Below are positions 1 through 7,591 of a DNA stretch of 13,701 nucleotides, one piece after another. A program made the translations under genes and the position numbers. This DNA is from a virus (lineage: Duplodnaviria > Heunggongvirae > Uroviricota > Caudoviricetes): IMG/VR virus record IMGVR_UViG_2660238190_000005, positions 1 to 13,701 of that record; one strand, 5' to 3'. A model generated the notes under the pieces. That model worked only from the letters and a program-made list of their open reading frames with translations. It did not search any database and had not been told where the DNA came from. The number at the start of each line of letters is the position of its first letter. The stretch's first letter is position 1.

Positions 1-477
1 ATGTTGCGTAAATTCATCACCGAAAATGACTTAAAAGAAAGTTACGACTATATCTTTATCGATAGCCCCCCAACAATCTCATTATTTACAGATACCGCAC
101 TCCTTGCTTCTGATTATTATCTTACTCCGGTTAAAATTGATCACTACTCGGTGCTTGGAGCAAGCAGTTTAAATAGCGTTATAAGAAATATGCGCACACA
201 TCATGAGAAAGAAATCAAGCAAGTCGGTTACATTTATACAAACACTGATGCTGAAATGACCAATAAAACAAGGGAAATTAAAGAGCAATTCGAAAACCAT
301 ACTCAATTTACAAATTTTTATTTCTTTGAAAATCAATTAACCTACGTGCGTGATTTAATGGTAGGTTATCAAGGGAATATTCCTTCTTGTTATTCAAAGT
401 CACGCCAAGATATAGAAAAGATCTGTAACGAATTTATTAACAGAGTGGCTCACTTGGAAGGTAACACAAATGAATAA
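1..477 (+). CDS. ParA/MinD-family ATPase-like protein, C-terminal portion only (no Walker A visible; either cut by the window edge or an N-terminally truncated fragment)
   Basis: Translation contains YDYIFIDSPPTISLFTDTALLASDYYLTPVKID, which matches the ParA Walker-B/switch region pattern (D-x-IIID-x-PP ... NAL-x-A-D ... IP). Very AT-rich. Stop at 475..477 overlaps the next start. Confidence 0.45.
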   Translation: MLRKFITENDLKESYDYIFIDSPPTISLFTDTALLASDYYLTPVKIDHYSVLGASSLNSVIRNMRTHHEKEIKQVGYIYTNTDAEMTNKTREIKEQFENHTQFTNFYFFENQLTYVRDLMVGYQGNIPSCYSKSRQDIEKICNEFINRVAHLEGNTNE

Positions 478-868
478 ACAATTAATTAAAGCGCTCAATA
501 AAGCTAACAATATGCCCATGACCAAAGAAAACTTCTTAGGCTTGGTAATTATGTTGATTCTTTCAAAAGAGGTTTTTAGATCAAATTTTGATGTTAGTAA
601 ATTTATTAACAAAACCTTCAAAATATCTTTTTTGAATTATGCTGTACGGTCAAGAACTTTGATGTGCGCTAAAATTTGCAAACATATTAATGAATTAAGT
701 GAGAATGACATAAAGATGGCTTATACGCATTTCTTAAACAACATTAACACATTAGACATTATTTTTAATGATGCAAATAAAACAAGCCAAAAATCCACAT
801 CTAAAAGCAAGCATGCTATAAGGAATTTAAATATTTGGATTAATGCAAATAAAAAGGAAGAAGAATAA
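470..868 (+). CDS. hypothetical protein (gene 2 of AT-rich cargo operon)
   Basis: 132-aa ORF; ATG at 470 overlaps the upstream stop by 8 nt; GGAAGG upstream; AT-rich codon usage matching its neighbours; no recognisable domain. Confidence 0.45.
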   Translation: MNKQLIKALNKANNMPMTKENFLGLVIMLILSKEVFRSNFDVSKFINKTFKISFLNYAVRSRTLMCAKICKHINELSENDIKMAYTHFLNNINTLDIIFNDANKTSQKSTSKSKHAIRNLNIWINANKKEEE

Positions 869-1533
869 TGCTCACGCAGGATCCCTTCAACATTGGAAGA
901 GATGTAAATTATTTTAGAGCGGAGGTGCAAAAGCACCTCAGAACCACTGATGAAATAAACAAATCAGTATCAATATTTAGGCAAATAAGTCTTTGTAATA
1001 CAATTTTAAGTCACAATCCTAATCTAAATCACTCTTCTTATATAAAAGGTTTTATATATGATACCTTAAACTCCTTAATTGCCATTATAAAAAAAAGAGA
1101 ACGGTATCTCCAACTGAACTTCCGCTCAATGGTGGAGCATGTGGCCAGAATAAGCCTCAATAAGAACTACAATGGTGGGGATTTTGACCAAACTGTACGT
1201 CGTAGAGACTTTGACTTCTTAAAAGCCCAACAAGTCGATGAAGGCTGGTCTTATTTACATAATGTCTATATCAACGCCTGTTATTATGTTCACTCCTCCC
1301 CCCAAGCGAACCTAAATGTTACATCAACATTTATATCACTTATGGAGGGAGATTGTAATTCAACACAGCATAAAATGGTGAAAAAACTTCATGAGGTAGT
1401 ATCGGCGCTGATGAGAATCATTATAAAGTATTATCATCAGCATATCTCAAACATTTTCTTTAGAAACAAAAAGGATTTAGAGAAAATAATGGGAAAAAGC
1501 CTTTATTCATATTATACCAGCTTAGACAATTAA
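868..1533 (+). CDS. hypothetical protein (gene 3 of AT-rich cargo operon)
   Basis: 221-aa ORF; start overlaps the upstream stop (TAATG); strong RBS AAGGAAGAAG upstream; contains a weak R-x4-H tetrad (RSMVEH); no family recognised. Confidence 0.5.
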   Translation: MLTQDPFNIGRDVNYFRAEVQKHLRTTDEINKSVSIFRQISLCNTILSHNPNLNHSSYIKGFIYDTLNSLIAIIKKRERYLQLNFRSMVEHVARISLNKNYNGGDFDQTVRRRDFDFLKAQQVDEGWSYLHNVYINACYYVHSSPQANLNVTSTFISLMEGDCNSTQHKMVKKLHEVVSALMRIIIKYYHQHISNIFFRNKKDLEKIMGKSLYSYYTSLDN

Positions 1534-1570
1534 TTCTCTCATATTCATTGCGTAGAGCATAAATATCTAT

Positions 1571-1960
1571 CTAACCACCTAAAATGCCAGAAAATCTAGT
1601 TGTATACCGGTGCGAAAATATCTCGCGTTTCATCTGCCACTGCTGCTGAATGCCCTGCCCAGCGAAACAGAGTGTTTCCTTCCCGTCTTTTGCGTTGAGG
1701 TGCTCCAGCACGCTCATTAACTTTTCGCTCCCAGGACCCAGCGCGTTATCGTCGAATAGGTTAGGGCATGCTCTGACTGAAGAAGTCCCCCAGCATTACC
1801 CCGGCTTTCTGATATCGGTGTCCGTCTTTCCATATTGCATCCAGACTCCCCGTTGCTACTGCAATGATATCCCGACTGTCCTGTGTCGGGATGAGCAGCT
1901 TCACCGACGCGTTGTTACAGTAGTACGACTCGTTCAACGCAAAGGGTATCGTGTAAAACC
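1571..1960 (-). pseudogene. umuC-like (Y-family translesion polymerase) C-terminal fragment, disrupted by a stop and frameshift
   Basis: Minus-strand translation gives ...PTQDSRDIIAVATGSLDAIWKDGHRYQKAGVMLGDFFSQSMP*, then in a shifted frame FDDNALGPGSEKLMSVLEHLNAKDGKETLCFAGQGIQQQWQMKREIFSHRYTTRFSGILGG*. This resembles the UmuC/MucB C-terminus as I remember it (HRYQKAGVML...LFDDNA...AGQGIQQQWQMKR...RYTTR). No N-terminal part or umuD is present. Upstream boundary is approximate. Confidence 0.5.
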
Positions 1961-2403
1961 GATGATGACACTGCCGGCAATCAGCACTGACGTCAGCAAA
2001 CGTGAGAAAGAACAGATAAGCCGAACGATTTAGGAAATGTTTGAAGAGACTGATATGTGGATGGTTTCAGTTTAAACGCCTTGAACCGTCATATTACCTA
2101 AGTACAATCCGCTGTGACTGGCAATCATTCAATACTTGCACTATCAAAAGTGCATCAGCCAACCGCAGCACGTCTTGCATACGACCTGTCTGCGGTTTCA
2201 ATCACCTCTCACCACCAGTCCCATCAATAATAATTAAACAGCGCCTAAACAAAATAAATAACAACAAGTCAACAACCTCGACAGGATGCCGATGGGATGA
2301 TGAAGAGATAAGAAAGAATAACTAGTAAAGCCCTAAAACGTCAGCGTTCAGACGCGTTTTTTACTTAACCGGTAACAAATACGTTGTATCATAGCAACAT
2401 AAA

Positions 2404-4353
2404 ATGATTGTTCTAAATCAGATTAACTCCTCACTTTTGTACAATGTCGCTTACAGGTATACCATGAAATCCGAGACGCTAACTGTCCAACAACTTTTTC
2501 AAGACCGCCGACAATACTGTGTTCCATTCTATCAACGTGCCTATGTATGGACTCAGCGAAACCAATGGTCAGCTCTACTGGAGGATATCCTAGAGAAAGC
2601 ACAATCCCGGCTCTCGGGTACAAAACCAACTCCCCATTTCCTTGGTGCAGTTGTACTGGAACCTCAACCAAAAAAAGGATTATTCGGTGTAGATTCCATA
2701 CATATTATTGATGGTCAGCAACGATTGACCACTCTTCAATATGTTCTGGCATCCATCCGATTAGCATTACGTGCAACAGATCTTTCCAACTTAGAGCCTC
2801 TCATTTCGTCTTGCCTGAAAAACTCAAACGAAGACACAATGCGAAATAAAGAAGTAGAGCGCTTCAAACTGTGGCCAACTTTTCGGGATCAAACTCATTT
2901 TATTCAAAGTTTTAATGTTGAAAATATTGACGATATCCGGAATGTATTCTCTGATAGTTTCACGCAGCATGGTACGTTGCGTAAGCATTTTAATCACCCG
3001 CCATCACTAGAAGCATTATGTTTTTTTACTGAAGCCTTTATAAAGTGGATTAAAATAGAAAATCACTCACCACGAGAAAATGCTGTAGCATTAATTGAGG
3101 CTGTCTTGACGGATCTGAAACTAGTAAGCATATTTCTCGAGGCTGAAGATGACGCTCAAATAATTTTTGAAACATTAAATGGCAGAGGTGCGGAACTTCA
3201 TGCCACAGATCTTATTCGCAATTATATTTTTATGTGCGCTGAACATGAAAATATTAATGCTGTTGAATTATATGAGAATGAGTGGAAGATCTTTGAAGAT
3301 ACGTACTGGTCAGAAAGACAACGTCGTGGTCGTATTAATAAACCACGCATGGAGTGGCTAGTGCATGCAACATTGCAATCAGAAAGGCAACGTGAAATCG
3401 ATCTGTCTCGTCTTTACAATGAGTATCGTGATTATGTAAGTAAGGACTTGCCTTCACAACGAGCAGATCTGCAAGTAAAGCGCCTCAAACAATATGCATC
3501 ACAATATAAAGAATTGGTTGGTGGTTTTGGCACAACCCCCATCTCACACTTTGGACATCGCATCGCAGCCTATGATGTGACGACACTTTATCCGCTTGCT
3601 TTGTTCATTTCGATAGCTAACATCGCCGATGATGAGAAAGCAGCCATGTATAATGATCTTGTCTCCTACGTAGTACGAAGAGCCGTATGTGGCCTGACGC
3701 CAAAGAATTACAACAATGTATTTATGAATGTATTGCGGCACTTGTCTAAAACAGAAATTTCCAGTGTTGAGTTACGTAATATCCTCAATAGCTTAAATGG
3801 CGAAGCCTCACGTTGGCCTGGGGACTCAGAATTTCTCAACGCTTGCATCAATGCTCCACTTTATCCTGGCAGGCTCGACGCACCGAAAATGCGCTCAATG
3901 TTAACGGAACTTGAAAGAGAACTTTGTCGCCAAGTGAAGACAGAGAAGCCTGATGTTCCAAATCTTTCTAACCTCGATATCGATCATCTTATGCCTCAAA
4001 GTTGGTATTCCTGTTGGCCTCTCGAAAATGGTCATATGGTGACAAATTCAGATGCTACGGTATTGAACCAAATTGTTCTGTCTGGAACCGATCTTACCCC
4101 AGAACAGCTACTGGTAAGGAAACGGCAACAAGCGATAGCTACGTTGGGAAATCTAACTTTGCTTAACCTTAGCGTAAACCGTTCTGTTCAGAATGCTGTA
4201 TTTCTGAAAAAACGTGATGCTCTCATCGTCCACACCAATCTACGACTGAACATTCCACTTATAGTTAAGGATAAATGGGATGAGGATGAAATCCTGGAGC
4301 GGGGTAAAATGTTGGGGGAAATTGCATTGAAAGTATGGCCAAAACACGATTAA
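2404..4353 (+). CDS. GmrSD-family type IV (modification-dependent) restriction endonuclease: N-terminal DUF262 ParB-like NTPase domain plus C-terminal DUF1524 His-Me finger nuclease domain
   Basis: N-terminus has VPFYQRAYVW and IIDGQQRLTTLQY (the DGQQR motif of DUF262). C-terminus has DIDHLMPQSW ... LGNLTLLNLSVNRSVQN, typical of DUF1524. Long uninterrupted ORF. True start may be the internal ATG at 2464 (MKSETLTVQQL...). Confidence 0.8.
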   Translation: MIVLNQINSSLLYNVAYRYTMKSETLTVQQLFQDRRQYCVPFYQRAYVWTQRNQWSALLEDILEKAQSRLSGTKPTPHFLGAVVLEPQPKKGLFGVDSIHIIDGQQRLTTLQYVLASIRLALRATDLSNLEPLISSCLKNSNEDTMRNKEVERFKLWPTFRDQTHFIQSFNVENIDDIRNVFSDSFTQHGTLRKHFNHPPSLEALCFFTEAFIKWIKIENHSPRENAVALIEAVLTDLKLVSIFLEAEDDAQIIFETLNGRGAELHATDLIRNYIFMCAEHENINAVELYENEWKIFEDTYWSERQRRGRINKPRMEWLVHATLQSERQREIDLSRLYNEYRDYVSKDLPSQRADLQVKRLKQYASQYKELVGGFGTTPISHFGHRIAAYDVTTLYPLALFISIANIADDEKAAMYNDLVSYVVRRAVCGLTPKNYNNVFMNVLRHLSKTEISSVELRNILNSLNGEASRWPGDSEFLNACINAPLYPGRLDAPKMRSMLTELERELCRQVKTEKPDVPNLSNLDIDHLMPQSWYSCWPLENGHMVTNSDATVLNQIVLSGTDLTPEQLLVRKRQQAIATLGNLTLLNLSVNRSVQNAVFLKKRDALIVHTNLRLNIPLIVKDKWDEDEILERGKMLGEIALKVWPKHD

Positions 4354-4582: not shown

Positions 4583-5176
4583 ATCCCCCTGACAAAAGCA
4601 GGAATGATGCCATTTGCTCGTTATTTCTGCATTTTCATAAACGTTGGTTTGGGAGAAGGTGCTCCAGCTATTGGCGTTCCGTTCTTCTGGCCGTCCGCCG
4701 CAATGCCAAATACTGTAATCGACAGTTGGTCCAGTATGGTGTTTTTGAAGTTCAACGGCGCGAAATTCTCTGCCACTGATTACCCTGTGCTGGCGAAAGT
4801 GTTTCCGGCGCTAGCATTACCTGACGCACGGGGTGATTTCATTCGTATCTGGGATGATGGGCGCGGGATTGATGTCGGACGTACCCTACTTTCAGGGCAA
4901 TCACACACAATTATGGATCATGCACACAATATGGAATTGTGGACGGGGGACGGGCTTGCCGCAGGAAGTGCACGGGAAGGAGTAAACCCAGGAATACTGG
5001 CTACATACGGTGACGGGGGAATAGTTAAAACGGACGAACCCGGTCTTAAGGTGCCTTCCTCACTACGAGCTCTTAGCTCTCGTAGTGTTAAACGTTATGG
5101 TGAAATTAGTGGAAATGTAGATACAGAAACCCGTCCACGAAATATTGCATTTAACTTTCTGGTGAGGGCTAAATAA
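4583..5176 (+). pseudogene. Phage tail fiber protein, C-terminal fragment only
   Basis: Translation ...PFFWPSAAMP...FNGAKFSATDYPVLAKVFPALALPDARGDFIRIWDDGRGIDVGRTLLSGQSHTIMDHAHNM...RPRNIAFNFLVRAK matches the conserved C-terminal region of lambda Stf / P2 H-type tail fibers. Frame opens only at 4583, far too short for a full fiber. Followed at 5176 by a 30-codon ORF overlapping by TAATG, possibly a tail-fiber-assembly remnant. Confidence 0.6.
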
Positions 5177-5237: not shown

Positions 5238-5411
5238 TTATAATGCAGTATCCCCTTCACAACGGTGAGCCACACGCCCACTCTGACGTAACTTGCTTGC
5301 TGACTGCTGAACGCGCTGCCGCGAGTAACCAGCAAAAGCATCCGCAATGTCTCCGGAAGTACACCCCGGATTGGCTTCAATGAATTTCTGAACGTCATTT
5401 AACAGACTCAT
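5238..5411 (-). CDS. small winged-helix/HTH DNA-binding protein (57 aa), below the ORF-track length cutoff
   Basis: ATG 2 nt after the replication-gene stop (TGATCATG). Translation MSLLNDVQKFIEANPGCTSGDIADAFAGYSRQRVQQSASKLRQSGRVAHRCEGDTAL has a classic HTH pattern (SGDIADAFAGYSRQRVQQ...L...G). Preferred over the overlapping 63-aa ORF in another frame. Confidence 0.4.
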   Translation of the reverse strand: MSLLNDVQKFIEANPGCTSGDIADAFAGYSRQRVQQSASKLRQSGRVAHRCEGDTAL

Positions 5412-5413
5412 GA

Positions 5414-6355
5414 TCACCCCCTGAATCCTGCCGGGATCTGGCTGTAGTCCACGTTGTCGTAACTGGCTTTGAAGTACGGGTCTTCACGTTTTTCTGTGTG
5501 CGTGCTGACGGACGGCGATAAGCGCAGGGAAAGCTCATCCCATTTTTCCCGCAACTTCGACGGGCTGAGCACGTTACGGCACCAGAACGGATCGCGGCTG
5601 ACGCGGCTGTACATCTCGCAGATTTGTTTGTGAGTACGACCATCCTGCACACACATCAGGCGAATTTCGTTTGCCCAGGCTGTCCAGTTAGGTTCTTTGG
5701 GACGAACCACCTCGCCGTCACATTCGGCGGCCTGCTCGTACAGGGCGATGATTTTTTTCCAGAGCCACTGTGCGCAGGTCAAATCATCCTGCGTTCCCCA
5801 CTGGCGCTTTTTAGAGCTGAATACAACCGCATCAGGATGACGAGTTAAAAAATCCTGTTCATCCTTCTTCATGTCCGGTTGCGAAGCGTCCGGACGAGAA
5901 GTTTTTTTATCTGACGGATCATGTTTTGATTTTACTGACGGATCCCCGCCAGATTCTGACGGGTGAAAACCCGCTTTTTTGCCAGATTTCGACGCATCAA
6001 ATTTTGACGGGTCAGATTTTGATGCGTCAGATTTTGACGGGTCAGAATCTGACAGTTGAGAAAATGCCGCTGCCTGAAGCTTCGCAACGTTAAGCTGATA
6101 AACATTCGACGCATTGCGGTTACCCTGGCGACGCGCCTTACGCGTTAACCAGCCTTCTGCTTCCAGCCGTGCGATAGCCGTTCTGACGGTACTCATCCCC
6201 GCGCCAATCTGGCGGGCAATGGTTTCAATTGATGGCCAGCACACACCTTCGTCATTACTGAAATCAGCCAGGCGGGCCATAATTGCCACGCTGGATAACT
6301 TCATGCCTGACGCAGCGCAACCATCCCATACATAGCCGGTTAATTTAGTGCTCAT
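5414..6355 (-). CDS. Phage replication initiation protein (O-like; N-terminal winged-helix DNA-binding domain, repeat-containing linker, C-terminal domain)
   Basis: N-terminus ...VAIMARLADFSNDEGVCWPSIETIARQIGAGMSTVRTAIARLEAEGWL is HTH-like. Internal pentapeptide repeats (DPSKS/DASKS) are encoded by tandem DNA repeats. Sits last in the cro-cII-O-type operon. Start overlaps the upstream gene. Confidence 0.65.
   Translation of the reverse strand: MSTKLTGYVWDGCAASGMKLSSVAIMARLADFSNDEGVCWPSIETIARQIGAGMSTVRTAIARLEAEGWLTRKARRQGNRNASNVYQLNVAKLQAAAFSQLSDSDPSKSDASKSDPSKFDASKSGKKAGFHPSESGGDPSVKSKHDPSDKKTSRPDASQPDMKKDEQDFLTRHPDAVVFSSKKRQWGTQDDLTCAQWLWKKIIALYEQAAECDGEVVRPKEPNWTAWANEIRLMCVQDGRTHKQICEMYSRVSRDPFWCRNVLSPSKLREKWDELSLRLSPSVSTHTEKREDPYFKASYDNVDYSQIPAGFRG
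5949..6057. repeat. Iteron-like 15-bp tandem repeats (consensus about TCAGATTTTGACGGG) inside the replication gene; candidate origin of replication
   Basis: Copies at 5949, 5982, 5998, 6013, 6028 and 6043, with further CTGACGG motifs at 5913 and 5936 and an adjacent T-rich stretch. Layout parallels iterons inside lambda O. Confidence 0.5.
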
Positions 6356-6364
6356 GACCGACCT

Positions 6365-6703
6365 CTATTTCCCTGAATTTACGACGAAACTGTTCGAGCG
6401 GGCTGAAGCACTCATGCTCATAGCCTTCGCGGAGGTAGATAACCCGTTGTGTTTCCGGCTCCCAACGAATGACTCTGACGGGTACTCCGTAGTGATCTTT
6501 GAACCAGCGGTTAACTTGTCGCAAAGGACTGTCTCCTTCTGCCGGTTGAAATCACCCACAGCCCACTCTGCAAAGCTGTGGGTTACAATTTCCCTGTCAC
6601 CTGGTACATTCACTGCATAGCAATATTCCACCTTCGCTTTTCCACCCGGTACAGGAAGCGCAATCAGTTGCGAGCGACGGTAGTGTGTTATTAAACTGTT
6701 CAT
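6365..6703 (-). CDS. hypothetical phage protein, probably frameshifted (N-terminal part in this frame, more protein-like C-terminal part in another frame ending at 6345)
   Basis: ATG at 6703 overlaps the upstream stop (ATGA). From about 6550 the listed frame turns Ser-rich and low-complexity, while an alternative frame reads ...[66 protein letters not shown] with its stop overlapping the replication-gene start. Confidence 0.4.
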
Positions 6704-7269
6704 GCGTTAGTTTCTCCACAACCAGAAGCAATCGACGCCACGACGCCCGGAGCTGCACACTCGCGGGCGTCATTACTTTCTGAAATGCAAAAAATTTTGT
6801 AAACAAGTGCTGCATGCTCCTGCAGCTTCGAAATTGAGAGATACAGCTCGTCGTTAATTGCTGTCTTCTCATGCGGTTCCACTACACCGTCTTCGATTGC
6901 TGAACGAATCTGTTTTGAATAACTGCCGATCTGTTCAATGACTTCCAGCAGACGCTGGTTAATATCGGCGTTGTCCACATCCTCGACGTCAGGAAGAGAC
7001 ACAAAGACGCCATTTGCAGACTGCGCCACAGCATCAGCAATGAAGTGAGTGCCACCAGCACGCTGTAAAACCATTGCCCATCCCAGCGGGAAAATCTGAT
7101 CGCCATCTGCACGAAGGCGGTTGAATAAAGCGTTTTCTGTTACATCGAGCCAGTCAGCCGCTTCAGCGTAACCACCCGGCAACGCCGCGATAGTTTTTCT
7201 GACAGCTTTCACGTACCACTCAGGCTGTTTTTCTATTTTCCAGTGATGCTTACCCACGATTAGCCTCAT
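6700..7269 (-). CDS. CII-like / YdaT-like phage regulatory protein (189 aa)
   Basis: Sits immediately downstream of the cro-like gene, in the cII position. Family assignment is from position and vague similarity only. GTG at 7255..7257 is an alternative start. Confidence 0.4.
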
Positions 7270-7300
7270 CGTTCTGTGGTTAAAAATTGAAAGTGTTCTG

Positions 7301-7501
7301 CTAATCTTTCGGATAGATATCCGGTCTTAAGTCAGATTTCGTAATTGCACCTGACGTGCATTGCTCAAGTTTTTTAGCCAGCACAAAACTGGCTTTTTTA
7401 TAGCCATTGAAAACCAGCCGTAAGTAGCCAGGTGTTGAGCCAACTTTTCCGGCCAACTCGCCCTGCTGTTCTTTGGTTAAAGAGTCCCAATACGATTTCA
7501 T
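7301..7501 (-). CDS. Cro-like HTH regulator (YdaS/Cro family, 66 aa)
   Basis: Translation MKSYWDSLTKEQQGELAGKVGSTPGYLRLVFNGYKKASFVLAKKLEQCTSGAITKSDLRPDIYPKD has an HTH and the LRPD motif typical of Cro/YdaS-like proteins. GGAGG lies 10 nt upstream of the ATG. Divergent from the repressor gene. The longer 167-aa ORF-track version is rejected. Confidence 0.65.
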   Translation of the reverse strand: MKSYWDSLTKEQQGELAGKVGSTPGYLRLVFNGYKKASFVLAKKLEQCTSGAITKSDLRPDIYPKD

Positions 7502-7591
7502 ACGATATGTACCTCCGGTGTACATATTACATGATTGAAATGAACCTTCAAGATACTTGTACCTTAACGGTACAAGGGTTTTAATTTCGTT
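7502..7591. promoter_or_regulatory. Divergent repressor/cro operator-promoter region (OR-like) with GTAC-core palindromes
   Basis: Palindromes ATGTAC-ctccggt-GTACAT (7507..7525) and CTTGTACC-ttaac-GGTACAAG (7556..7576). On the cro-sense strand, TTGAAG, a 16-bp spacer and TAATAT form a candidate -35/-10. Confidence 0.5.

What the first reader, a model, noticed from the sequence alone, without database searches (positions are those of the whole stretch)
5949..6057. Iteron-like tandem repeats inside the replication initiator gene: probable prophage origin
Six to eight copies of a 15-bp unit carrying a CTGACGG-type core are embedded in frame within the O-like gene, encoding repeated D-x-SKS pentapeptides, next to a T-rich stretch. 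This mirrors lambda, where ori iterons lie inside O and are bound by the initiator's N-terminal domain. It suggests the remnant may keep a functional ori.
Basis: partly seen in the sequence, partly recalled or inferred. Interest (0 to 1): 0.45.

Follow-up and report, generated by a model that had tools for sequence, protein, structure and literature searches.

The report
Replication origin inside a prophage initiator gene
The repeats are real and are very probably the replication origin of an SfII/SfIV-type temperate phage, lying inside its own initiator gene as in phage lambda, so this is a well-known arrangement in a family where it has not been written up.

Summary
Gene 5414-6355 (minus strand, 313 aa) has five tandem 15-bp units at 5981-6057 and a sixth at 5948-5960. 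Each unit holds a 13-bp near-palindrome, GTCARAATCTGAC. Next to them lies a 72% A+T stretch (5896-5944) with two GATCCGTCAG copies.

The repeats encode a predicted disordered linker between a winged-helix N-domain and a C-domain homologous to phage phi80 gp15. The evidence points to selection on the DNA, not on the peptide:
- Synonymous changes drop from about 50-60% in both flanking domains to 8-20% here, while amino-acid changes rise.
- Conservation follows the palindrome, not codon position.
- Phage phiP27 keeps one copy in a different reading frame.
- Relatives with diverged or unrelated N-domains carry different repeats at the same place.

The sequence is identical in the viable phage SfIV. 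This is a new member of the lambda/phi80/P22 "origin inside the initiator gene" kind. It differs in its HTH_36 N-domain, its 15-bp in-frame period, and the lack of a neighbouring helicase-loader gene. Whether the remnant still fires is unknown.

The parts
5414..6355 (-). Replication initiator gene, 313 aa (equivalent to SfIV gp41; RefSeq names it 'helix-turn-helix domain-containing protein')
   Evidence: ORF. 98% identical to SfIV/SfII replication protein genes. PHROG 391 'replication initiation O-like', 1e-134. Pfam HTH_36 at aa 23-70.
6059..6355 (-). Coding region of the N-terminal winged-helix domain (aa 1-99), the presumed origin-binding domain
   Evidence: The AF2 model gives helices 2-15, 19-30, 42-49 and 53-65 and strands 69-73 and 83-87, pLDDT 70-85. 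Foldseek matches MarR/ArsR/PadR winged-helix dimers weakly, E about 4e-3. Pfam HTH_36, with weak DnaD_N and RP-C matches.
6041..6053 (.). Dyad 1 (GTCAGATTCTGAC in gene sense)
6026..6038 (.). Dyad 2 (GTCAAAATCTGAC)
6011..6023 (.). Dyad 3 (ATCAAAATCTGAC)
5996..6008 (.). Dyad 4 (GTCAAAATTTGAT)
5981..5993 (.). Dyad 5 (GTCGAAATCTGGC), the most degenerate copy
5948..5960 (.). Dyad 6 (GTCAGAATCTGGC), separated from dyad 5 by the spacer GCAAAAAAGCGGGTTTTCACCC. It is almost invariant in subtype-A relatives (GCC for GTC in YeP2).
5896..5944 (.). A+T-rich element with two GATCCGTCAG copies (5935-5944 and 5911-5920, 24 bp apart, each with a Dam GATC site). Presumed unwinding region.
   Evidence: G+C minimum of the gene. 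72% A+T. GATC sites at 5917 and 5941. Conserved in N-domain subtypes A, B and C and in phiP27, although their iterons differ.
5877..5899 (-). Module junction TCTCGTCCGGACGCTTCGCAACC. Homology with phiNP ends here and homology with mEp460_4F5 begins here.
5417..5800 (-). Coding region of the helical C-terminal domain (aa 186-313), the presumed replisome- or helicase-recruiting domain
   Evidence: AF2 pLDDT 80-92. 35% identity to phi80 gp15 aa 176-275, E 6e-24. Weaker PHROG matches to 'DnaD-like helicase loader' and 'replisome organizer' families.
7592..8266 (+). Context: LexA/S24-type cI-like repressor (ymfK) of the same remnant, which would control transcription into the origin
   Evidence: RefSeq annotation of the identical region. 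98% identical to SfIV.

Best explanation
The stretch 5896-6057 is the vegetative replication origin of an SfII/SfIV/SfV-type temperate phage, embedded in the linker-coding part of its own initiator gene.

Inferred mechanism:
1. After derepression, rightward early transcription (leftward in the window) makes the 313-aa initiator.
2. Dimers of its winged-helix N-domain bind the 13-bp dyads GTCARAATCTGAC (six copies) and build a nucleoprotein complex.
3. The adjacent 72% A+T stretch, which carries two GATCCGTCAG/GATC elements, melts.
4. The C-domain, tethered by the flexible linker, brings in the host helicase machinery.

Shown here: the repeats, their dyad symmetry, their position, the DNA-level constraint, the co-variation with N-domain type, and the homology of the C-domain to a characterised initiator.

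Inferred, not shown: binding, unwinding, helicase recruitment, and activity in this remnant.
For: 1. The repeats are far above chance: 14 motif hits against 2.44 expected, 0 of 200 shuffles, plus the TRF result.

2. The domain layout matches lambda and phi80.
- Winged-helix N-domain, disordered aa 101-166, helical C-domain.
- The C-domain is homologous to phi80 gp15 (E 6e-24).
- phi80 gene 15 contains four annotated gp15 binding sites followed by an A+T-rich stretch.

3. Synonymous sites are frozen.
- Window vs phiNP: 40 synonymous changes in 99 N-domain codons against 2 in 56 origin codons.
- Across the 15 pairs among six subtype-A homologues, synonymous change at amino-acid-identical codons is 0.43-0.64 in the N-domain and 0.04-0.27 in the origin for the 14 diverged pairs, Fisher p 3e-7 to 5e-3. 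The near-identical pair Kp1LV/KpF5 is uninformative (p 0.1). The six pairs with phiP27 are weaker (origin 0.17-0.42, p 0.001-0.09).
- In four pairs the origin is an island (0.08-0.20) between diverged N-domains (0.51-0.63) and C-domains (0.41-0.46), while amino-acid change is higher in the origin.

4. Over 34 distinct units, the conserved block is TCARAATCTGA. It includes three third-codon positions at 1.3-1.5 bits, while the first two positions of codon 2 are the least conserved.

5. phiP27 keeps one copy in another reading frame, read as TLQNL instead of DPSES.

6. The repeats co-vary with the N-domain.
- Subtype B has GTCAAnnnTTGAC and subtype C has GTCCAGAATCTGGAC.
- mEp460_4F5 has the same C-domain but an unrelated N-domain, and carries 23-bp repeats plus 3 x 12-bp A+T-rich units at the same place.
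- Min27, ST64B, ZF40 and Vibrio phage D62 each have their own dyad repeats there.
- phiNP has the same N-domain and repeats with a different C-domain.

7. The sequence is identical in the viable phage SfIV.

8. The paradigm is documented for lambda, P22, L and Stx phages (bioRxiv 10.1101/2020.10.05.325894; PMC7466680).
Against: - There is no experimental evidence for this family. The SfIV genome paper names a replication module but no origin (PMC3851460).
- No P-, DnaC- or DnaB-like gene follows the initiator in the window or in SfIV, unlike lambda, phi80, P22 and phiP27.
- The 15-bp spacing of 13-bp dyads leaves little room for neighbouring dimers.
- Natural variants with only one or two tandem units exist: P0017, P0015, P0032, P0067. 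Whether those prophages replicate is unknown.
- Part of the low synonymous divergence could reflect recombination at a module junction rather than selection.
- The N-domain structural matches are weak (E about 4e-3).
Confidence: 0.8

Rival explanations
1. The repeats are only a slippage-prone, low-complexity linker (D-x-S-K-S)n with no function at the DNA level. The origin lies elsewhere in the phage.
For: The copy number varies from about 1 to about 10 units among homologues, as expected for slippage. The encoded segment is predicted to be disordered.
Against: The synonymous freeze with raised amino-acid change. Conservation that follows the dyad rather than codon position. A frame-shifted copy in phiP27. 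Dyad symmetry. Different repeats with different N-domains at the same position.
Confidence: 0.05
2. The dyads are binding sites for the initiator, but they serve control (autoregulation, roadblock or titration/handcuffing) rather than initiation. Unwinding and helicase loading happen at another site.
For: Iterons of plasmids serve both initiation and control (established knowledge). The 15-bp packing looks more like a titrating array than an ordered complex. No helicase-loader gene is nearby.
Against: A conserved A+T-rich element directly abuts the array on the promoter-distal side, as in lambda and phi80. Array and A+T-rich element are inherited together with the N-domain as one module. No other repeat cluster was seen in the early region of the window.
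Confidence: 0.08
3. The high DNA conservation reflects a recombination 'boundary sequence' between exchangeable N- and C-domain modules. It is kept similar by frequent exchange, not by selection for a binding site.
For: The joints with phiNP and mEp460_4F5 lie immediately next to the element, at 5877-5899. Mosaicism is rampant in these phages.
Against: In four pairs both flanks are equally diverged and only the origin is conserved. Recent exchange would lower amino-acid changes too, yet they are higher here. It does not explain dyad symmetry, the tandem periodicity, the frame-independent copy, or subtype-specific repeats.
Confidence: 0.05

Closest known systems
ori-lambda inside gene O (also 434, 82, 21, and Stx phages such as 933W)
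   Same: Both have an array of dyad-symmetric initiator-binding repeats in the middle of the initiator gene, in the part that encodes the linker between the DNA-binding N-domain and the C-domain. In both, an A+T-rich stretch follows on the promoter-distal side, the number of repeats varies between phages (4 or 6), and extra repeats add residues to the protein (PMC7466680).
   Different: The N-domain here is Pfam HTH_36, not Phage_rep_O. The repeats are 13-bp dyads on a 15-bp in-frame period, against the ~20-bp repeats reported for lambda. No P gene follows. No experimental proof exists for this family.
Phage phi80 gene 15 / ori-phi80
   Same: The C-domain is homologous (35% identity, E 6e-24). 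Four annotated gp15 binding sites lie inside the gene, followed by an A+T-rich stretch and then the conserved start of the C-domain.
   Different: The phi80 N-domain is Phage_rep_O and its sites are unrelated in sequence (TTCCCGAAAACGG type, about 21-bp period). phi80 has gene 14 (P-like) immediately downstream.
P22 gene 18 and phage L gene 18 origins
   Same: They are distantly related initiators, each with its own iterons inside the coding region: four ~20-bp repeats in P22 and six 11-bp repeats in L. For L the origin was proposed from sequence only, as here (bioRxiv 10.1101/2020.10.05.325894).
   Different: These phages encode their own DnaB-type helicase (gp12). The repeat sequences and periods differ.
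Iteron origins of plasmids (pSC101, R6K, RK2, P1/F Rep proteins)
   Same: Winged-helix initiator, tandem binding sites, and a neighbouring A+T-rich unwinding element.
   Different: Plasmid iterons lie outside the rep gene and are usually flanked by DnaA boxes. None was found in 5800-6100. Rep proteins have tandem WH1-WH2 domains, which is not the layout predicted here.

Membership tests
Lambdoid 'origin inside the initiator gene' (ori-lambda / ori-phi80 / P22 ori kind) | Two-domain initiator: N-terminal sequence-specific DNA-binding domain, flexible linker, C-terminal replisome-recruiting domain | tested here: met
   Winged-helix N-domain, aa 101-166 at pLDDT below 50, helical C-domain. C-domain homologous to phi80 gp15. 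PHROG 391.
Lambdoid 'origin inside the initiator gene' (ori-lambda / ori-phi80 / P22 ori kind) | Three or more repeated, dyad-symmetric sites inside the linker-coding part of the gene | tested here: met
   Six 13-bp dyads at 5948-6053, encoding aa 100-136.
Lambdoid 'origin inside the initiator gene' (ori-lambda / ori-phi80 / P22 ori kind) | A+T-rich stretch next to the repeats on the promoter-distal side | tested here: met
   5896-5944 is 72% A+T and is the G+C minimum of the gene.
Lambdoid 'origin inside the initiator gene' (ori-lambda / ori-phi80 / P22 ori kind) | Repeats co-vary with the N-domain and are exchanged together with it, independently of the C-domain | tested here: met
   phiNP, mEp460_4F5, subtypes B and C, and four distant relatives.
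Lambdoid 'origin inside the initiator gene' (ori-lambda / ori-phi80 / P22 ori kind) | DNA-level constraint overlapping the coding sequence | tested here: met
   Synonymous freeze, dyad-patterned conservation, and a frame-independent copy.
Lambdoid 'origin inside the initiator gene' (ori-lambda / ori-phi80 / P22 ori kind) | Initiator binds the repeats, and the fragment supports initiator-dependent replication | not testable with these tools
   Needs EMSA/footprinting and a mini-replicon or marker-frequency assay.
Lambdoid 'origin inside the initiator gene' (ori-lambda / ori-phi80 / P22 ori kind) | Partner gene for helicase delivery (P, gp14, DnaC-like or DnaB-like) directly downstream | tested here: not met
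   In SfIV the initiator is followed by PerC-like, LexA_DNA_bind-like, KilA-N, DUF968/HNH and Q genes. In the window it is followed by a truncated PerC-like gene. phiP27 (DnaC) and ZF40 (DnaB-like) do have a partner gene.
Lambda O protein family proper (Pfam PF04492 Phage_rep_O) | N-domain matches Phage_rep_O | tested here: not met
   The window protein matches HTH_36 (4e-11) and has no Phage_rep_O hit, whereas phi80 gp15 matches Phage_rep_O at 6e-25.
Plasmid iteron/Rep origins | Iterons outside the rep gene, with DnaA boxes adjacent | tested here: not met
   The repeats lie inside the gene, and no DnaA box with 1 mismatch or fewer occurs in 5800-6100.

The most novel reading that the evidence does not exclude
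The initiator plus its internal origin may be a self-sufficient replicon that needs no phage-encoded helicase loader, with the phi80-gp15-like C-domain recruiting host DnaB/DnaC or the primosome directly. If so, this remnant, which keeps the repressor, the early promoter region, the initiator and the origin, could still fire after SOS induction and amplify the neighbouring chromosome in situ, including the adjacent DUF262/ParA island. A further possibility is that the twice-repeated GATCCGTCAG element, conserved across relatives whose iterons differ, is a second, separately recognised site, for example a Dam/SeqA-controlled unwinding or loading element.
Probability: 0.2. Interest if true: 0.5.

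Novelty: new member of a known kind. Interest (0 to 1): 0.3.

Why it matters
- It assigns a concrete origin (about 160 bp) to a very common group of Enterobacterales prophages. The gene occurs in 2725 of 5426 complete E. coli genomes, and 2374 related proteins were found. Genome papers for this group name a replication module but no ori.
- It supplies a natural series of matched initiator/iteron specificities (subtypes A, B and C, plus 21-bp-period relatives) for studying how winged-helix initiators change DNA specificity.
- It marks these widespread remnants as candidates for SOS-induced local over-replication.
- It is a clear worked case of a cis-element hidden in a coding sequence and detectable by synonymous constraint.
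- It does not change the current understanding of phage replication.

Tried and rejected
- DnaA boxes: none in 5800-6100, and no enrichment in the window (41 against 33.8 expected).
- GATC sites are not enriched overall (50 against 50.8). Only the two conserved sites in the A+T-rich element are of note.
- Rfam finds only tRNA-Thr, so no known RNA element explains the constraint.
- A profile search of PDB sequences gave only weak MarR/GntR winged-helix hits (E about 0.09). Foldseek gave weak winged-helix hits for the N-domain, and the top 50 PDB hits appear to be winged-helix N-domain matches, with nothing evident for the C-domain. The helicase-recruiting role of the C-domain therefore rests on homology to phi80 gp15 and on PHROG labels only.
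- NCBIfam gave nothing useful for the window protein.
- An antisense terminator-like hairpin at 5960-5973 is not conserved in Kp1LV or KpF5, so I treat it as chance.
- The small ORFs 5926-6093 (+) and 5932-6114 (-) overlapping the repeats are treated as by-products of the repeats.
- Literature: the SfV genome paper (PMC134923) is not held. Searches for yfdO, SfV/SfIV origins and phi80 gp15 iterons found no description of this origin.

Full report
**Where the window comes from**

The window is an E. coli chromosomal segment next to proA and tRNA-Thr (thrW), and it carries the integrase-proximal half of an SfII/SfIV/SfV-type prophage. Positions 5248-11058 are 97-98% identical to phage SfIV. The RefSeq annotation of a 99.98-99.99%-identical strain lists, in order: integrase, excisionase-like genes, a LexA-type cI-like repressor (ymfK, 7592-8266), a cro-like gene (ymfT), ymfL, a DUF4222 ORF, and then a 313-aa 'helix-turn-helix domain-containing protein' at 5414-6355 on the minus strand. 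Beyond 5248 the phage is lost. It is replaced by tail-fibre fragments and an unrelated island.

The same gene at 97-98.5% identity is called replication protein, protein O or primosomal protein in the isolated phages SfIV, SfII, Kati, PhiR29 and others. It occurs in 2725 of 5426 complete E. coli genomes.

**The observation**

The repeats are real.
- Tandem Repeats Finder gives a 15-bp period over 5983-6046 (4.3 copies) and a 30-bp super-period.
- In gene sense there are five head-to-tail units (6057-5983), a sixth unit after an 18-bp spacer (5964-5950), and two partial copies that share only GATCCGTCAG (5944-5935 and 5920-5911).
- The motif RTCARAWTCTG with up to 1 mismatch is found 14 times against 2.44 expected. 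None of 200 shuffles reached 14, and 11 of the hits lie in 5948-6053.
- Each unit is a 13-bp near-palindrome, GTCARAATCTGAC (half-sites GTCA/TGAC 9 bp apart), plus two variable bases, so the motif matches on both strands.
- The units are in frame and encode SDSDPSKSDASKSDPSKFDASKS.
- Promoter-distal to them lies the G+C minimum of the gene: 30% over 5900-5939 and 72% A+T over 40 nt.

The element extends about 50 bp further, to 5896.

**The protein**

Pfam finds HTH_36 at aa 23-70, with weak DnaD_N and RP-C matches. PHROGs places the protein in family 391, 'replication initiation O-like', at 1e-134. An AlphaFold2 model built on 23 homologues shows three parts:
- a winged-helix N-domain (aa 1-97, pLDDT 70-85);
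- an unstructured segment (aa 101-166, pLDDT below 50);
- a helical C-domain (aa 186-280, pLDDT 80-92).

The repeats and the A+T-rich stretch encode aa 100-153, which is the disordered linker. Foldseek matches the N-domain weakly to dimeric MarR/ArsR/PadR winged-helix proteins.

The C-domain is 35% identical (E 6e-24) to the C-domain of phage phi80 gp15. The phi80 record annotates gp15 as a replication initiation protein with four gp15 binding sites inside its own gene. Those sites are followed by an A+T-rich stretch and then by the conserved start of the C-domain. The phi80 N-domain is Phage_rep_O. The window protein is therefore an O/gp15-type initiator with a different origin-binding module.

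**Is the DNA or the peptide under selection?**

Four independent results point to the DNA.

1. *Synonymous sites.* Window against Citrobacter phage phiNP gives 47 identical, 40 synonymous and 12 non-synonymous codons in the N-domain (99 codons). The repeat and A+T region (56 codons) gives 44, 2 and 10. Across the 15 pairs among six subtype-A homologues, synonymous change at amino-acid-identical codons is 0.43-0.64 in the N-domain and 0.04-0.27 in the origin for the 14 diverged pairs (Fisher p 3e-7 to 5e-3). The near-identical pair Kp1LV/KpF5 is uninformative, and pairs involving phiP27 are weaker (p 0.001-0.09). Against Klebsiella and Pantoea homologues in which both domains have diverged, the origin is an island of 0.08-0.20 between 0.51-0.63 (N-domain) and 0.41-0.46 (C-domain). 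Amino-acid replacement is higher in the origin.
2. *Position of conservation.* Over 34 distinct units, the conserved block is TCARAATCTGA. It includes three third-codon positions at 1.3-1.5 bits. The least conserved positions include the first two bases of the second codon, which form the spacer between dyads.
3. *Reading frame.* Phage phiP27 (N-domain 60% identical) keeps one copy, TTTTGACCCTTCAGAATCTGG, in a different reading frame. It is translated TLQNL instead of DPSES.
4. *Copy number.* The number of units varies freely, from about 1 to about 10, and protein length varies from 274 to 338 aa. This shows that the peptide itself is not constrained.

**Co-variation with the N-domain**

- phiNP, Flotzy and YeP2 share the N-domain, the repeats and the A+T-rich element, but have a different C-domain (Phg_2220_C).
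- mEp460_4F5 shares the C-domain but has an unrelated N-domain. At the same place it carries five or six 23-bp repeats and three 12-bp A+T-rich units.
- Both joints fall at 5877-5899, just beyond the A+T-rich element.
- Within the HTH_36 family, N-domains about 55% identical carry altered dyads: GTCAAnnnTTGAC in subtype B and GTCCAGAATCTGGAC in subtype C. These go with substitutions in the predicted recognition helix, aa 53-65 (inference).
- More distant members (Min27, ST64B, ZF40, Vibrio phage D62) each have their own dyad repeats, with a 21-bp period, at the same place in the gene.

This is the classic signature of initiator/iteron modules in lambdoid phages. Lambda, P22 and L each bind different iterons inside their own coding regions (bioRxiv 10.1101/2020.10.05.325894). 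In lambda and Stx phages the origin consists of iterons plus an A+T-rich tract in the middle of O, and extra iterons lengthen the protein (PMC7466680).

**Most likely mechanism (inferred)**

Dimers of the N-domain bind the six dyads. The resulting complex melts the adjacent A+T-rich element. The tethered C-domain then recruits the host helicase machinery.

Several points remain open.
- No P-, DnaC- or DnaB-like gene lies next to the initiator in SfIV or in the window. phi80, phiP27 and ZF40 do have such a gene.
- The 15-bp packing of 13-bp dyads may not allow all sites to be occupied at once. The 30-bp super-period hints that alternate sites are used.
- GATCCGTCAG occurs twice in the A+T-rich element and is conserved even where the iterons differ. 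It may therefore be a separate site. It carries Dam GATC sites.

**Rivals**

- *A pure slippage linker* is contradicted by the four DNA-level results above.
- *A recombination boundary sequence* could add to the conservation. It does not explain the island pattern with raised amino-acid change, the dyad symmetry, or the subtype-specific repeats.
- *A control-only array with initiation elsewhere* cannot be excluded without experiments. It is less likely given the abutting conserved A+T-rich element, which is inherited together with the array.

**Is the remnant's origin functional?**

The origin sequence 5895-6130 is identical to that of SfIV, which is a viable, lysogenising phage (PMC3851460). 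The initiator ORF is intact, and the repressor and early region are 98% SfIV-like. So the cis-element and its initiator are preserved. Whether they fire, and whether lost downstream genes are needed, is untested.

**Novelty**

The arrangement is textbook. For this family I found no description of the origin. The SfIV paper names orf41-45 as the replication module without an origin, the SfV paper is not held, and other searches were negative. I rate it a new member of a known kind, of modest interest.

Noticed in passing
window 8278-8349: After the cI-like gene (7592-8266) there is a terminator-like hairpin at 8278-8297. It is followed by a near-consensus promoter-like site (TTGACA-16-CATAAT, 11 of 12) at 8306-8333, which overlaps two tandem 20-bp repeats AATGTACCCAAGAGAAACAT at 8311-8349. 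This could be an operator/promoter of a moron or of the leftward operon.
   Followed up: no
window 5044-5051; L001 4931-7631: Strain BS74R-D carries a 2.7-kb IS66-family element (ISCro1 tnpA/tnpB/transposase) that the window lacks. The two alignment blocks overlap by 8 bp (5044-5051), as expected for an 8-bp target duplication.
   Followed up: partly
window 1-4353: Left of the prophage remnant lies an unrelated island with a ParA-family gene, two hypothetical genes, DinI/UmuC-like fragments and a 649-aa DUF262 protein at 2404-4353, which might be a defence island (speculative).
   Followed up: no
window 6345-6703: Two overlapping minus-strand ORFs upstream of the initiator are annotated differently in different records. 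The 112-aa ORF (6365-6703) is SfIV gp40, 'hypothetical'. The 59-aa DUF4222 ORF (6345-6524) is the RefSeq call and overlaps the initiator start by 11 nt.
   Followed up: no
window 5911-5920 and 5935-5944; L016 1810-1849; L018 1768-1795: A short element is repeated just after the iterons. In the window family it is GATCCGTCAG x2, conserved across subtypes whose iterons differ. In Salmonella phage ST64B and Vibrio phage D62 it is AGAACCAGTCA x2-3, identical in these two distant phages. It may be a second class of site in these origins.
   Followed up: partly
window 5960-5973 (+ strand): An antisense terminator-like hairpin, CGGGTGAAAACCCG plus a T-run, lies in the spacer between dyads 5 and 6. 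It is not conserved in the Klebsiella phage homologues.
   Followed up: partly
SfIV L002 2437-6004; L010 3987-6990: SfIV-type phages have no recognisable helicase or helicase-loader gene. The initiator is followed by PerC-like, LexA_DNA_bind-like, RusA/KilA-N, DUF968/HNH and Q genes, even though its C-domain is homologous to that of phi80 gp15, whose neighbouring gene 14 is annotated as a replication initiation protein similar to lambda P.
   Followed up: partly
L009 (AJ298298.1 phiP27) 1501-3300: The GenBank phage P27 record encodes an HTH_36-type initiator (L17) followed by a DnaC-like gene. PMC7466680 describes a 'P27' with a lambda-like O and six lambda-type iterons. The two may not be the same replication module, so care is needed when citing 'P27'.
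   Followed up: no
window 5890-6060 (minus strand as ssDNA): The origin strand folds much better than shuffles (-28.7 kcal/mol, z = -5.2), a consequence of the packed dyads. Hairpins or cruciforms could form once it is unwound.
   Followed up: no
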